Positions 7,367-14,452 of a stretch of DNA of 64,000 nucleotides are shown here, piece after piece; positions within the stretch are counted from its first letter, which is position 1; every line of letters begins with the position of its first letter. A program made the position numbers and the translations under genes. This DNA is from Escherichia coli. GTDB taxonomy: Bacteria; Pseudomonadota; Gammaproteobacteria; Enterobacterales; Enterobacteriaceae. The DNA lies in assembly GCF_009931435.1 (NCBI RefSeq), contig NZ_CP043414.1. One strand, given 5' to 3'. The notes beneath the pieces were generated by a model. The model saw nothing but the letters and a program-made list of their open reading frames with translations. It was not told the DNA's origin and did not search any database.

Positions 7367-7486
7367 GTACAAAAAGTGTACTTCTGATGATCTTTCCCTG
7401 CCTATCAGCCCCCCTGCTGAACCCTGCACAATATCCAGTCCCTTGCGGGTCATGTCACCCTGCCGCGCCGCCGGTTTTCCGCTCAT
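7367..7486 (-). pseudogene. Duplicated Rhs 5' start remnant ([13 protein letters not shown]...QGSAG, about 25 codons), then divergent sequence
   Basis: The reverse complement of 7412-7486 encodes [26 protein letters not shown], nearly identical to the start of the full Rhs gene at 12277; homology ends abruptly and a stop follows. Confidence 0.7.
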
Positions 7487-7562
7487 GGTTTATTCCTTTT
7501 CTTTTACCTTACATGTCCATACAAATAGTTACCTATACTGTCTTTGAATATTGCCCTACCAT

Positions 7563-8012
7563 TTAAAGCCCACCTATTTCTTGCGACAGAAAAGGGATTT
7601 CTTTTTTAATCCAATCTATCATTTCATTTTTTTCAAAACATACGTTAATGCCATTCACACTGCCACATTCACCAAAACCATCAAAATAAATTTCACATTT
7701 ATTATTTTTATTCGAAACAATGTCAACCCCCCATCTTATATCGTTATTCTCCTCCTTCCTGAAATACTTCATTTGCAATAAATCAATTATCTCACCAGCA
7801 TAAAAATCGCTAACCCCATTCACCACCACTTTATGTTTGTATATTCTCTTGAGACCTTCCTTGCTAAGCGGGGTTAAGGTGGTAACATATGCTGGAAGAT
7901 TAATTATTTCTATCGTTTTCACACTATCTATTCCACACAATTCATTCACTCGCCCCATCCCCAATACCGAAGCAGAAAATAGAGACAATAAAACCATCAA
8001 ATATTTCATCAT
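7563..8012 (-). CDS. Putative Rhs immunity protein with N-terminal Sec signal peptide (149 aa)
   Basis: Starts 13 nt after the Rhs stop, same strand; N-terminus MMKYLMVLLSLFSASVLG is a typical signal peptide; AT-rich like the Rhs C-terminal region. May correspond to K-12 ydcD (unverified). Confidence 0.7.
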   Translation of the reverse strand: MMKYLMVLLSLFSASVLGMGRVNELCGIDSVKTIEIINLPAYVTTLTPLSKEGLKRIYKHKVVVNGVSDFYAGEIIDLLQMKYFRKEENNDIRWGVDIVSNKNNKCEIYFDGFGECGSVNGINVCFEKNEMIDWIKKEIPFLSQEIGGL

Positions 8013-8024
8013 AAAAAAATCTCA

Positions 8025-11500: not shown

Positions 11501-12277
11501 GGCCTCTTCCGCACGCTGCGCCTGCGTGGTCAGCACCAGACGGAACTTCCGCCCGGCACCGTCCGTCACGCTGGTGATTTCCCCAGCCAGGTCACCGGCG
11601 GCCTCACGCCGGTACGTCAGCGTCCGCCCGAAGCGGTCCGCCAGCCCGGTAAGCACCCGGTACGGCGGCAGCGGCGCTGGCAGTACGTCCTCAGCACCCG
11701 GCACCCGCTCACTCCACCCCAGTATCCACCACGACCCCTGTGCGCTGTTGGTCGCCAGGTAAAGATGCGGGCTTAACCGGATATCCGGCGGCAGCGCCCC
11801 CCACAGTCGCGCCAGCGTGTGGCCGTCCGGCTGCGCTGCCTTACCACCGCGCACCAGCCACATTGACTCGCTGCGGCTGTACACCGCCTCCCCCGGCAGC
11901 AGCGGCTCAAAGTGAATGCTCCGCCCGCCGTTGTCGTTGAGTATCAGTGCGTCATCACGTAGCTGTAAGCGGATATCCGAAGGCGCTTTCCAGCCGGGGC
12001 CGAAAACGCCCACCGGGGCAGGCGTCCTCGTCCGGTAGCTGCTGTAGGTGCGGGAGAGAATGAACGGCAGCGGGCCGGGCAGCGCAAGGTCCGTCTCGCC
12101 GGGCAGCACCTTCGCCCCCAGCAGCGGATTTACCGGGTTGCCCGAAGTCATCCCGCCCGGACACACCGAGCACGCCACGCCGGTGGGCGCGCCAATTCTT
12201 ACACCTGCCGAACCCTGGACAATGGGACCGCCATACTGAGTCATATCTCCCTGACGCGCTGCTGGTTTTCCGCTCAT
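8025..12277 (-). CDS. rhsE: Rhs-family protein (PAAR-like N-terminus, YD-repeat core, variable C-terminal toxin domain); reading frame broken by an apparent 1-nt deletion near 9327
   Basis: ORF 9209-12277 (1022 aa) starts [25 protein letters not shown] with an ATG at 12275-12277 and runs through YD repeats to ...[13 protein letters not shown] 8025-9320 (431 aa) continues in another frame through ...[27 protein letters not shown] and the C-terminal domain. Symbol assigned by locus position only. Confidence 0.85.
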
Positions 12278-12343
12278 GATTCAATTCCTTCTTCTGTTTA
12301 TTTTTAATGCTTGTTTGTTACTGAATACCGAACAGGTACGGGA

Positions 12344-14452
12344 TCAGTACTCTCTCATATCCGGCGTATCCTGCTTTTCATCAGGGGTCTTCGGTGGGGA
12401 TTTCGAGGCTGCACAGTTCCAGTTAATCAACAGTGAGTCACCATTAACCTGCTCCTTACCCTGCAAATGAATTTTTGTGCCGTTGAGAAAAATTTGTCCG
12501 TCCTTAGTCAGCACCAGCCTTGCCTTACCACAGCAGAGTTCCAGATGCTCACCGGCGGAGTAAATCGCGGTCTGCCCGGTATCATCCTTTTTCGTTTTAC
12601 CAACGGTGAAGGTAACGTTATTTCCGACTTTGACGTCATAACCCAGCCCGACCATCAACGATTTATGCAAACCGATCTGCGAGGACTGCATCAGGGCCAC
12701 CGAGGTGTTCATAATGCCACCTACCGTCGTCTGATACGCCACGCCCACAGTCAGCGCACGAACAAGTCCAATCGTTTCCACCTGAACAGAGCCCACTTTA
12801 ATGATCTGGTTACTGCCCACCGTCTCTATCTGGTTAACGCCCACCGTCTGTATCTGATTGTTGGTAACCGCAATCACCTGATTGTTGCCGATGGTCTCAG
12901 CATGGTTGTTTATCACATCCGTGGTGCGGTTATTCAGCACCTCGGTGTTCATGTTCTTCTGCGCGTGGATGTAGACCTGTTCTTTCCCTGTCGCATCGTC
13001 AAACTTCAGTTCATTAAACCCGCTGCCCTTATAGGTTTTCGAACGAATGGTCATCTGCGTCTTTGTTCCCGGCAGGCTGCCGGGGGTGCGGTTTTCCTGG
13101 TGGTAGGTACGCCCCATAATAATCGGCTGGTCCGGATCGCCGTTGAGGAAGTCCACAATGACCTCCTGACCCACACGCGGTATCGCCAGGTTACCAAACC
13201 CGGTGCCTGCCCACGCCTGTGCCACACGGATCCAGCATGAACTGTCCTGGTTTGACGGGTTATAACGGTCCCAGTTAAATTTCACCCGCACGCGGCCATG
13301 TTCATCACAGAAGATTTCTTCTCCTGCCGGTCCCGTCACGACGGCGCTCTGCGGGCCATCCACCAGCGGTTTCAGCAACGGCTGTGGCCGCCATGTTCTG
13401 TCTGCCGGTATTACCGCAAAGTGGTTATTCAGCGTGGTACCTGAACCCCTGCGTCCCGGCACCGCCTGCGGCTGCTCGCCGTGCAGTTCACTTGCCACCA
13501 CCTGCCATTCCCGGTTCAGGTTCGCCTGCGGATGCCCCGTCAGCGCAATTCGCCGTCCCGGCCATATCTCCGGAGAACGGCTTGTTCCGCGCGCCACTTC
13601 TGCGTTGTTTCGCCAGCCATCCATCTGCCAGCGGGCAAAGTTCTGCCCGTGGGCACCCTTGAAACGTCCGGGGTAGTCATACACTTCATACTGTGTGCGC
13701 TGGTAATCCTGGTACTGGCCTTCCTGATCAAAACGCCCTGCCCAGCCGGGTCGTTTAAAGGTGTAGTCCTTGGTCACCACGGAAGAAGGGCGGATTTGTG
13801 CGCTGTAGCGGAACTGGCTGATGCATAGGGTGCTCACCTCGGTACGGGTGTTCGGATTCCAGGGGATCTCAAAGGACTCCGGCAGATAACGCACGGTGTC
13901 GCACAGGACCAGGCTCTGGTCGGTACTTTTTTGCGCGTGCTCCTCATAAAAGAAGATGCCTTCCTCCGCCGCCATCCGGCACAGGAAATCGTAATCGGTT
14001 TCGCCGTACTGGACACAAAACTCACGGGAAGGATGCGGCTCGCTGAACAGCGGACTCCACTCGGTCACCCCGTTTTCTTTCAGGATCGTCGCGAGTATGC
14101 TTTCGATGTCCTCATTCTGGAAGATACGGAAGTTCTGGCGCAGCCCTGTGCGCCACAGCGGTGGGCACACCTTCATGCTGTACAGCATCTGGTTTTTGTC
14201 GTTCTCCCCCAGTTCAAACCAGGTCACCACACCTTTTACCCGGCGCTGTACGTCATCGCCCTGCCATACCGTCAGGTAGGCCATTTTGTCGAGGATCTGC
14301 GGAAATTCAAGGGAAAGAAACTGCTGACTGACCAGAGAAAGGTCGAGGGAAAAAAGTGAAGAGAGTGACTGGGTGAGATGAAAGGAAACCACCGCAAACG
14401 CGTCCGGTGGCAGGCCGTCCACTTCCAGCGTGAAACGTAATCCGGTTGACAT
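12344..14452 (-). CDS. vgrG: Type VI secretion spike protein VgrG
   Basis: N-terminus MSTGLRFTLEVDGLPPDAFAVVSFHL... is typical of VgrG; gp27/gp5-like middle region and C-terminal repeats (VINNHAETIGNNQVIAVTNNQIQTVGVNQIETVGSNQ); start set at the ATG at 14450-14452 with GGAGG upstream; ends 66 bp before the Rhs start. Confidence 0.9.
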   Translation of the reverse strand: MSTGLRFTLEVDGLPPDAFAVVSFHLTQSLSSLFSLDLSLVSQQFLSLEFPQILDKMAYLTVWQGDDVQRRVKGVVTWFELGENDKNQMLYSMKVCPPLWRTGLRQNFRIFQNEDIESILATILKENGVTEWSPLFSEPHPSREFCVQYGETDYDFLCRMAAEEGIFFYEEHAQKSTDQSLVLCDTVRYLPESFEIPWNPNTRTEVSTLCISQFRYSAQIRPSSVVTKDYTFKRPGWAGRFDQEGQYQDYQRTQYEVYDYPGRFKGAHGQNFARWQMDGWRNNAEVARGTSRSPEIWPGRRIALTGHPQANLNREWQVVASELHGEQPQAVPGRRGSGTTLNNHFAVIPADRTWRPQPLLKPLVDGPQSAVVTGPAGEEIFCDEHGRVRVKFNWDRYNPSNQDSSCWIRVAQAWAGTGFGNLAIPRVGQEVIVDFLNGDPDQPIIMGRTYHQENRTPGSLPGTKTQMTIRSKTYKGSGFNELKFDDATGKEQVYIHAQKNMNTEVLNNRTTDVINNHAETIGNNQVIAVTNNQIQTVGVNQIETVGSNQIIKVGSVQVETIGLVRALTVGVAYQTTVGGIMNTSVALMQSSQIGLHKSLMVGLGYDVKVGNNVTFTVGKTKKDDTGQTAIYSAGEHLELCCGKARLVLTKDGQIFLNGTKIHLQGKEQVNGDSLLINWNCAASKSPPKTPDEKQDTPDMREY

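What the first reader, a model, noticed from the sequence alone, without database searches (positions are those of the whole stretch)
7367..14452. Complete vgrG-rhs-immunity module where K-12 (from memory) has only a truncated rhsE remnant
A 703-aa VgrG is followed 66 bp later by a full-length Rhs with a PAAR-like N-terminus, then C-terminal toxin, immunity gene and a duplicated Rhs 5' start, all on the minus strand. This is the layout of a T6SS-delivered Rhs effector island, yet no hcp, tss structural genes or adaptor/chaperone gene (DUF1795, DUF4123 or DUF2169 type) lie in the window, so it must rely on a T6SS encoded elsewhere, if the strain has one.
Basis: partly seen in the sequence, partly recalled or inferred. 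Interest (0 to 1): 0.6.

Follow-up and report, generated by a model that had tools for sequence, protein, structure and literature searches.

The report
Frameshifted vgrG–rhs toxin island
This is the common E. coli vgrG–rhs–immunity island at the rhsE site, a well-known type VI secretion toxin cassette, but in this copy the rhs toxin gene is broken by a one-base deletion, so it is ordinary and probably disarmed.

Summary
K-12 lacks window 10081–14519, which is all of vgrG plus the first 2.2 kb of rhs.

The Rhs is not full-length as encoded. A one-base deletion at 9326–9328 splits it into ORFs of 1022 and 431 aa. The first ORF stops before the C-terminal plug and the toxin. None of 9157 homologous sites in 5426 complete E. 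coli genomes shares the deletion. An indel audit of 42 kb of flank argues against a generally error-prone assembly.

The island is not unusual:
- About 62% of complete E. coli genomes have vgrG at this junction.
- E. coli 55989 and the O104:H4 strains carry the same layout, with rhs intact.

The toxin tip (h1 type) is a 159-aa HExxH zinc peptidase related to family M91, with the core fold of a botulinum-neurotoxin light chain. Its immunity protein (dsORF-h1) has a conserved signal-like N-terminus, which suggests the toxin acts in the periplasm.

The window holds no tss or hcp gene. The nearest sequenced relative has a degraded T6SS. Whether the source genome has a T6SS cannot be told from 64 kb.

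Verdict: already known, low interest.

The parts
12344..14452 (-). vgrG (tssI), intact, 702 aa. It has gp27-like, OB-fold and gp5 beta-helix domains plus about 80 aa of unassigned C-terminus.
   Evidence: TIGR03361 628 bits. Pfam Phage_GPD, Phage_base_V and Gp5_trimer_C. 96.9% aa identity to the VgrG of strain 55989. 98.4% nt identity to the vgrG inside the T6SS cluster of strain 1190.
12278..12343 (-). 66-bp vgrG–rhs spacer, with no room for an adaptor gene
   Evidence: ORF coordinates
9209..12277 (-). rhs 5' ORF of 1022 aa: 984 authentic Rhs residues followed by 38 out-of-frame residues and a TGA stop. It contains the 45-aa PAAR-like stub (12277–12143), the DUF6531 plug (aa 46–123) and the YD repeats.
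9326..9328 (-). Site of the one-base deletion (CAC CGC CTG became CAC GC CTG) that shifts the rhs frame
   Evidence: Among 3710 E. coli records, none matches the 80-nt stretch at 99% or more, and every listed top hit is 80/81 with one extra base.
8025..9320 (-). rhs 3' part in the shifted frame (431-aa ORF): the end of the core, the aspartyl-protease plug (YYDP at aa 1220, IDSLGL at aa 1253) and the toxin tip
   Evidence: Inserting one C gives a 1417-aa protein that scores 2752 bits against NF041261 RHS_core, cut-off 2000
8028..8504 (-). h1-type toxin domain of 159 aa (aa 1259–1417 of the repaired protein), with HEFAH at aa 1342–1346. It is an M91-related zincin with the core fold of a botulinum-neurotoxin light chain.
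7563..8012 (-). Immunity gene (RHS element protein dsORF-h1), 149 aa, intact. It has a hydrophobic signal-like N-terminus and four invariant cysteines.
   Evidence: Annotation under the matches, alignment, hydropathy
7364..7486 (-). Stub of a second rhs gene (a 40-codon ORF). Its rhs homology spans 7486–7401 and is cut off by ISAs1.
   Evidence: In strains 1190 and 88-3493 the same sequence starts a second full rhs core.
6109..7400 (-). ISAs1-family (H-repeat, ydcC-like) element. Its transposase gene (7256–6195) has two in-frame stops and a 3' one-base deletion.
   Evidence: NF033564 313 bits, 96.4% identity to K-12 ydcC, translation
10081..14519 (.). The 4.4-kb segment that is deleted in K-12 MG1655 (vgrG plus the first 2.2 kb of rhs)
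   Evidence: BLAST of the window against NC_000913.3 1518000–1536000

Best explanation
This is a classical Rhs element at the rhsE/rhsH site, between yncH and yddH. It consists of a vgrG spike gene, an rhs gene whose GC-rich core encodes a YD-repeat shell, an AT-rich exchangeable toxin tip (h1 type), its immunity gene (dsORF-h1), the stub of a second rhs gene, and an ISAs1/H-repeat element.

How the intact form most likely works (inferred by homology):
1. The short N-terminal piece of Rhs binds the tip of the VgrG trimer.
2. The shell encloses the 159-aa toxin, and the C-terminal aspartyl-protease plug cuts the toxin free after IDSLGL.
3. A T6SS encoded elsewhere fires the spike into neighbouring cells. 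The likeliest machine is the aspV–yafV cluster, because a vgrG inside that cluster is 98% identical to this one.
4. The toxin, a zinc endopeptidase with an HExxH motif and the core fold of a botulinum-neurotoxin light chain (M91-related), probably acts in the periplasm, because its immunity protein looks secreted.

In this sequence a private one-base deletion ends translation after Rhs residue 984. The product therefore lacks the C-terminal plug and the toxin, and the weapon is disarmed. vgrG and the immunity gene remain intact. The locus probably now serves only as protection against h1-armed neighbours and as raw material for recombination.
For: Shown here:
- The deletion is absent from all 9157 homologous places in 5426 genomes.
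- Only 3 one-base indels, all intergenic, occur in 42 kb aligned to the nearest relative, so the assembly is not indel-prone.
- Strain 55989 has the same layout with an intact 1413-aa Rhs.
- 3379 of 5426 genomes have vgrG at this junction.
- The h1 tip and immunity module is found in 1017 of 5426 genomes.
- The window's tip, immunity gene and second rhs start are 99.8% identical to a copy at the hcp–vgrG–rhs end of the T6SS cluster of strain 1190.
- The window's vgrG is 98.4% identical to that cluster's vgrG.
- The immunity protein has a conserved hydrophobic N-terminus and four invariant cysteines.

From the literature:
- The closest solved Rhs is Tse5 (E = 5e-120). It has a 47-aa PAAR-like N-terminal piece, a DUF6531 plug and no transmembrane region, and it is VgrG-dependent (PMC10684867).
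- A T6SS metallopeptidase toxin that acts in the periplasm, with a signal-peptide, disulfide-dependent immunity protein, is established for VgrG2b/PA0261 (PMC6899460).
Against: - The source genome is not available, so the presence of a T6SS is unknown.
- A single-base error in the assembly cannot be excluded without reads.
- The query toxin itself is below Pfam's threshold for M91 (E = 0.056–0.12) and has no sequence match in the PDB.
- No secretion, toxicity or localisation experiment exists for the h1 pair.
- The immunity structure model was poor (pLDDT 48.9).
- The N-terminal PAAR-like piece fails Pfam's threshold.
Confidence: 0.75

Rival explanations
1. The frameshift is a sequencing or assembly error. 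The island would then be an intact, working vgrG–rhs–immunity cassette, as in strain 55989, used by a T6SS elsewhere in the genome.
For: Everything else in the 80 nt around the site is identical to thousands of intact copies. Apart from the deletion, no other lesion was found in the rhs reading frame, and the repaired protein is full-length with all motifs. Multi-copy rhs cores are hard to assemble and polish. The site lies 3 nt from a CCTGG Dcm motif, and my own knowledge (not tested here) is that such motifs can be error-prone in some long-read data.
Against: The 42 kb of flanking sequence show no coding indels against the nearest relative. The site is not a homopolymer. The neighbouring ISAs1 gene is also decayed. 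RefSeq marks rhs pseudogenes in other strains at this kind of locus, and a STEC Rhs–M91 gene is likewise split by a premature stop (bioRxiv 10.1101/2024.03.05.583533).
Confidence: 0.2
2. The downstream 431-aa ORF (GTG at 9320) is expressed on its own as an orphan-like Rhs fragment that carries the toxin.
For: The ORF is open and contains the protease plug and the toxin.
Against: It has no VgrG-binding N-terminus and no shell, so it has no known route of export. Its start is merely the first GTG after a stop inside the shifted frame, and the scan found no promoter-like site upstream of it on that strand.
Confidence: 0.03
3. The whole island is a relic in a strain with no working T6SS, as in K-12, so even the intact parts have no offensive role.
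For: The nearest complete genome, 2020CK-00188 (99.2% identical over 42 kb), has a degraded aspV–yafV T6SS. Its tssM is frameshifted, its tagH is fused to a truncated rhs, and tssB–G, hcp and vgrG are gone. At least about 1000 genomes must carry vgrG at this junction without that tssB–G block (3379 against 2300).
Against: The window is not from that strain, since the content after yncH differs and the left flank is only 97% identical. Other T6SS types were not surveyed.
Confidence: 0.4

Closest known systems
vgrG–RHS core–dsORF-h1–ISAs1 locus of E. coli 55989 and the O104:H4 strains (NC_011748.1 1637804–1645716)
   Same: It sits at the same chromosomal site (yncH to yddH), with the same gene order and the same h1 toxin and immunity type. 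Amino-acid identity is 96.9% for VgrG, 89.7% for Rhs and 85.2% for the immunity protein.
   Different: The 55989 rhs is one intact 1413-aa ORF and pptA is present. In the window rhs has a one-base deletion, a longer stub of a second rhs gene survives, and pptA is replaced by an AT-rich 1.2-kb segment.
RhsE remnant of E. coli K-12 (rhsE', ydcD, yncI', ydcC)
   Same: Same site. The rhs core is 92% identical over the retained 1.5 kb, and the ydcC-type ISAs1 element is 96% identical.
   Different: K-12 has lost vgrG and the 5' 2.2 kb of rhs (window 10081–14519). It also carries a different tip and immunity pair (the rhsE tip with ydcD).
RhsH/RhsE tandem elements and vgr genes described by Wang, Zhao and Hill, J Bacteriol 1998;180:4102. 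The citation was seen; the content is recalled from memory because the paper is not held.
   Same: Both are composites of a GC-rich core, an AT-rich extension, a downstream ORF and an H-repeat, with a vgr gene upstream. RefSeq still uses the name dsORF-h1 for this immunity protein.
   Different: I could not compare sequences with ECOR-45 directly.
P. aeruginosa Tse5 (PA2684) with VgrG1c (PDB 8cp6; PMC10684867)
   Same: It is the best solved-structure match (E = 4.8e-120). The architecture is the same: a 45–47-aa PAAR-like N-terminal piece, a DUF6531 plug, a YD shell, an aspartyl-protease plug and a small C-terminal toxin. Neither has a transmembrane region.
   Different: The Tse5 toxin forms pores in the inner membrane, whereas here the tip is a zinc peptidase. 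Tse5 is intact and has been shown to be secreted.
VgrG2b C-terminal metallopeptidase with PA0261 immunity (PMC6899460)
   Same: It is an HExxH zinc peptidase delivered by a T6SS. It is toxic only in the periplasm, and its immunity protein has a signal peptide and conserved cysteines.
Peptidase M91 (NleD) and clostridial neurotoxin light chains (M27)
   Different: This domain has only 159 residues, it sits in an antibacterial rather than an anti-eukaryotic context, and its substrate is unknown.
Rhs–Peptidase M91 in a STEC O22:H8 vgrG island without EagR (bioRxiv 10.1101/2024.03.05.583533), and PAAR-RHS-M91 in Salmonella Dublin SPI-19 (PMC8867033)
   Same: They are the same kind of effector in a similar setting, and the STEC copy is also split by a premature stop.
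   Different: Both are known only from bioinformatic description. Sequence identity to the window was not tested.

Membership tests
T6SS spike protein VgrG/TssI | gp27-like hub, OB-fold and gp5 beta-helix domains, scoring above the curated cut-off | tested here: met
   TIGR03361 628.5 bits against a cut-off of 186. Phage_GPD 1.5e-74, Phage_base_V 7.8e-15 and Gp5_trimer_C 8.6e-26.
RHS element core protein (NF041261) | Full-length YD-repeat core that matches the equivalog model | tested here: met
   2752 bits against a cut-off of 2000 over residues 1–1258, but only after one base is restored. There are 9 RHS_repeat hits at E ≤ 0.001, plus DUF6531.
RHS element core protein (NF041261) | One uninterrupted reading frame from the N-terminus through the core into the toxin tip | tested here: not met
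   Two ORFs in different frames. Translation stops 38 codons after residue 984.
Rhs polymorphic toxin | C-terminal aspartyl-protease and demarcation motif (DPxGL … DPxGL) ahead of a variable tip | tested here: met
   YYDPLQG at aa 1220, DPIGL at aa 1232 and IDSLGL at aa 1253. TIGR03696 82 bits over residues 1181–1258. All lie in the shifted frame.
PAAR-domain T6SS tip proteins | A PAAR domain of about 90 aa with three PAAR repeats | tested here: inconclusive
   Only residues 3–20 match the last third of PF05488, at E = 0.27. The stub has the same length as the 'PAAR-like' Tse5-NT (PMC10684867).
Classical Rhs element (Hill laboratory definition) | GC-rich core, AT-rich extension, downstream ORF and H-repeat (ISAs1) | tested here: met
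   GC is 0.61–0.68 in the core against about 0.35 in the tip and immunity region. dsORF-h1. ISAs1.
Functional T6SS effector–immunity module | T6SS core genes (tssA–M, hcp) in the same genome | not testable with these tools
   None lies in the 64-kb window, and the source genome is not in the collection. The nearest relative has a degraded cluster.
Functional T6SS effector–immunity module | T6SS-dependent secretion and killing, and protection by the immunity protein | not testable with these tools
   This needs experiments.
Eag/DUF1795-, DUF4123- or DUF2169-dependent effectors | An adaptor gene next to the effector | tested here: not met
   The vgrG–rhs gap is 66 bp, and no such gene is annotated in the same locus in strains 55989, 88-3493 or 1190.
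Peptidase M91 / botulinum-neurotoxin-light-chain-like zincins | HExxH motif and a zincin fold | tested here: met
Peptidase M91 / botulinum-neurotoxin-light-chain-like zincins | A significant match of the protein itself to PF14891 | tested here: inconclusive
   The query scores E = 0.056–0.12, but 10 of 19 homologues score E ≤ 0.001, with a best value of 6.6e-09.

The most novel reading that the evidence does not exclude
The h1 Rhs tip may be a minimal zinc endopeptidase, with the core fold of a botulinum-neurotoxin light chain, that kills bacteria from the periplasm by cutting an unknown envelope protein. It would be neutralised by a secreted, disulfide-bonded immunity protein (dsORF-h1). The pair is carried by about 19% of complete E. 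coli genomes, yet none of the papers read here reports an experimental test of it.
Probability: 0.4. Interest if true: 0.4.

Novelty: already known. Interest (0 to 1): 0.15.

Why it matters
It matters little beyond correct annotation. This copy should be called an rhs pseudogene with an intact vgrG and an intact orphan-like immunity gene, not a complete effector island. The locus does illustrate how Rhs elements evolve. The same tip, immunity gene and rhs-start block occurs at both the rhsE site and the T6SS-linked rhs site in different strains, and decay of rhs (frameshifts, truncation, deletion) was seen in several of the strains examined. The one part worth an experiment is the h1 toxin and immunity pair, which is widespread in E. 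coli and has no known substrate.

Tried and rejected
- I looked for the source genome in 5426 complete E. coli genomes and did not find it. The best match, 2020CK-00188, is 99.98–100% identical only on the right flank, has different content after yncH, and its assembly breaks at this locus.
- Pfam and NCBIfam gave nothing significant for the toxin, the immunity protein or the 240-aa AT-rich ORF, and PADLOC gave nothing for the latter two.
- A profile of the toxin family against PDB sequences returned nothing, so no sequence link to VgrG2b could be shown.
- The AlphaFold2 model of the immunity protein was too poor (pLDDT 48.9) for a fold search.
- I rejected programmed frameshifting. Restoring the frame would need a −1 slip, and there is no slippery heptamer at CACGCCTGG (read directly).
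- The promoter and terminator scan was uninformative, with counts near the shuffle expectation.
- Wang et al. 1998 (PMC107404) is not held in the library, so the RhsH/vgr history rests on my memory plus the citation and the RefSeq product name.
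Full report
**What is in the sequence.** The genes lie on the minus strand between yncH (15273–15485) and yddH (4310–4879), in this order:
- vgrG, 12344–14452
- a 66-bp gap
- an ORF that starts [11 protein letters not shown] at 12277
- a 149-aa ORF at 7563–8012
- a 40-codon ORF that again starts [11 protein letters not shown], at 7486
- an ISAs1-family element, 6109–7400

The base composition is that of a classical Rhs composite. GC is 0.61–0.68 over 9000–12000 and falls to about 0.35 over 7500–8500.

VgrG is intact. It scores 628 bits against TIGR03361 and has Phage_GPD, OB-fold and gp5 beta-helix domains.

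**The Rhs gene is broken.** It is not one ORF. It is two ORFs in different frames, 9209–12277 (1022 aa) and 8025–9320 (431 aa).
- The sequence reads CAG CAC GCC TGG where intact copies read CAG CAC CGC/CGT CTG G.
- Restoring one C gives a 1417-aa protein that matches the NCBIfam RHS_core equivalog end to end, at 2752 bits against a cut-off of 2000.
- As encoded, translation leaves the Rhs frame after His984 and stops 38 codons later.
- The product therefore lacks the last quarter of the shell, the aspartyl-protease plug (YYDP at 1220, IDSLGL at 1253) and the toxin.

**Is the deletion real?**
- An 80-nt query across the site found 9157 places in 3710 records from 5426 complete E. coli genomes. 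None reached 99% identity, and every listed top hit is 80/81 with one extra base in the record. The deletion is therefore private to this sequence.
- To judge assembly quality I listed every indel between the window and its nearest relative. Over 42,147 aligned bases at 99.2% identity there are three one-base indels, all in the ydcF–aldA spacer, and none in about 45 genes.
- The neighbouring ISAs1 transposase gene has two in-frame stops.
- I conclude that the deletion is probably real, with confidence of about 0.75. Only reads or Sanger sequencing can settle it.

**Comparison with other E. coli.**
- K-12 MG1655 has yncH, a 2049-bp rhsE pseudogene, ydcD, yncI', ydcC and pptA, and no vgrG. Aligned to the window, it lacks 10081–14519, which is all of vgrG plus the first 2.2 kb of rhs.
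- The K-12 state is the minority. A 741-nt query that spans the vgrG 5' end and the yncH-side spacer is at least 80% covered in 3379 of 5426 genomes.
- E. coli 55989, and by the annotation under their matches the O104:H4 outbreak strains, have the same layout: yncH, vgrG, RHS core (1413 aa, intact), dsORF-h1, an ISAs1 pseudogene, pptA and yddH. Amino-acid identity to the window is 96.9% for VgrG, 89.7% for Rhs and 85.2% for the immunity protein.
- vgrG-linked rhsE in EHEC EDL933, and E. coli vgrG islands in general, are already discussed in the literature (PMC7216683, PMC6730261).
- From memory, Wang, Zhao and Hill (1998; citation seen, paper not held) described RhsH in tandem with RhsE at this map position, with vgr genes upstream of Rhs cores. 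RefSeq's product name 'RHS element protein dsORF-h1' derives from that nomenclature.

**Link to a T6SS.**
- The window holds no tss or hcp gene. Positions 1–6642 are collinear with narH/narW/narI–yddE–nhoA–yddH of the nearest relative. Positions 15236–63927 are collinear with its yncH-to-ynbD stretch. Neither annotated stretch has such a gene.
- The window's tip, immunity gene and second rhs start (7401–8640) are 99.8% identical to a copy in strain 1190. That copy lies at the hcp–vgrG–rhs end of the T6SS cluster next to yafV.
- The window's vgrG is 98.4% identical to that cluster's vgrG. The aspV–yafV cluster is therefore the machine this spike would most plausibly fit.
- The tssB–tssG block of that cluster is present in 2300 of 5426 genomes. 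That is fewer than the 3379 with vgrG at the rhsE site, so many strains keep the island without that machine.
- The source genome is not in the collection.
- Its nearest relative, 2020CK-00188, has a degraded cluster. tssM is frameshifted, tagH is fused to a truncated rhs, and tssB–G, hcp and vgrG are gone. A tail of h1 tip, dsORF-h1, rhs stub and ISAs1 follows, collinear with the window's tail at 89.5% identity. This is a hint only, because that strain differs from the window at the locus itself.

**No adaptor gene.**
- The closest solved structure to the repaired Rhs is P. aeruginosa Tse5 (8cp6, E = 4.8e-120), with query residue 48 aligned to the first residue of the Tse5 shell chain.
- Tse5 has a 47-aa 'PAAR-like' N-terminal piece anchored in a DUF6531 plug, has no transmembrane segment, and associates with the VgrG1c spike for secretion (PMC10684867).
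- The window protein has the same plan: a 45-aa stub followed by DUF6531 at residues 46–123.
- By Pfam's standard the stub is not a PAAR domain. Only residues 3–20 match the last third of the model, at E = 0.27. 'PAAR-like' is therefore acceptable as a description but not as family membership.

**The toxin.**
- The 159 residues after IDSLGL carry an HEFAH motif. The query alone gives only weak Pfam matches (M91 at E = 0.12).
- Homologues occur both as Rhs tips and as small stand-alone proteins. Some are named 'M91 family zinc metallopeptidase' by NCBI.
- In an alignment of 19 sequences, [12 protein letters not shown] and EE.RV…E..AA are invariant. Ten of the 19 match PF14891 at E ≤ 0.001.
- The AlphaFold2 model is confident, with pLDDT 94.5.
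- The tip is therefore a minimal zinc endopeptidase of the M91 and botulinum-light-chain kind. Its substrate is unknown.
- Rhs–M91 effectors have been noted bioinformatically in a STEC vgrG island without EagR, where the gene is also split by a stop (bioRxiv 10.1101/2024.03.05.583533). They have also been noted in Salmonella Dublin SPI-19 (PMC8867033). The STEC preprint states that no T6SS-associated Rhs–M91 protein has yet been identified and that the activity and substrate are unknown.

**The immunity protein.**
- dsORF-h1 is intact, and its named homologues are all from Escherichia or Shigella.
- It has no Pfam, NCBIfam or PADLOC match.
- All ten alleles compared keep a hydrophobic N-terminus (MKYLMVLL..FS.S.LG) and four cysteines.
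- I infer that it is exported to the periplasm, and therefore that the toxin acts there.
- The experimentally established precedent is the VgrG2b metallopeptidase. It is toxic only in the periplasm, and its immunity protein PA0261 needs its signal peptide and DsbA (PMC6899460).
- I could show no sequence relation between the two toxins, so this is an analogy and not membership.

**Verdict.** The layout and the contrast with K-12 are right, but 'full-length Rhs' and 'complete module' are wrong. The thing is a well-known and very common E. coli Rhs element and vgrG island, here with a private inactivating deletion in rhs, a decayed ISAs1 element and a truncated second rhs. Novelty: already known. 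Interest: low. The only open biological question it touches is the target of the widespread h1 zinc-peptidase tip.

Noticed in passing
window 4926–6108: An AT-rich (GC 0.30–0.35) 1.2-kb segment with a 240-aa ORF (5271–5993, minus strand) sits where K-12 and 55989 have pptA. It has no Pfam-independent family hit in NCBIfam or PADLOC. The same segment, annotated as hypothetical, is at least 80% covered in 193 E. coli genomes and partly matched in 660, including EAEC 042.
   Followed up: partly
window 1–6100: The narH/narW/narI–yddE–nhoA–yddH flank is only 90–95% identical to 5402 of 5427 E. coli records, and 96–97% identical to the four closest listed records. The right flank is 97.5–100% identical. 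The chromosome is mosaic across the Rhs locus, which suggests recombination at or near it, or a divergent lineage.
   Followed up: partly
window about 32836–36666: An insertion at the hicAB site is shared with strain 2020CK-00188. It holds an IS3-family pseudogene (32836–34012), a 188-aa acidic ORF (34974–35540, minus strand) and a 259-aa LprI-family 'lysozyme inhibitor' protein with a signal peptide (35887–36666, plus strand). LprI-type proteins serve as immunity proteins to cell-wall toxins in other systems (PMC8867033).
   Followed up: no
L008 (2020CK-00188) 30481–47174: In the nearest relative the aspV–yafV T6SS cluster is degraded. tssM is frameshifted and tagH is fused to a truncated rhs. 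A tail of h1 tip, dsORF-h1, rhs stub and ISAs1 follows, collinear with the window's tail at 89.5% identity.
   Followed up: yes
window 6195–7256: The ISAs1 (ydcC-like H-repeat) transposase gene has two in-frame stop codons, at codons 44 and 60, and a one-base deletion near its 3' end relative to K-12 ydcC.
   Followed up: yes
L001 (strain 88-3493) 6163–7328 and L005 (strain 1190) 8138–16188: Other strains carry the same h1 tip and immunity pair, either as an orphan fragment behind an ISAs1 element or on an rhs gene that RefSeq marks as incomplete, with frameshifted rhs genes beside them. Decay of rhs was seen in several of the strains examined.
   Followed up: partly
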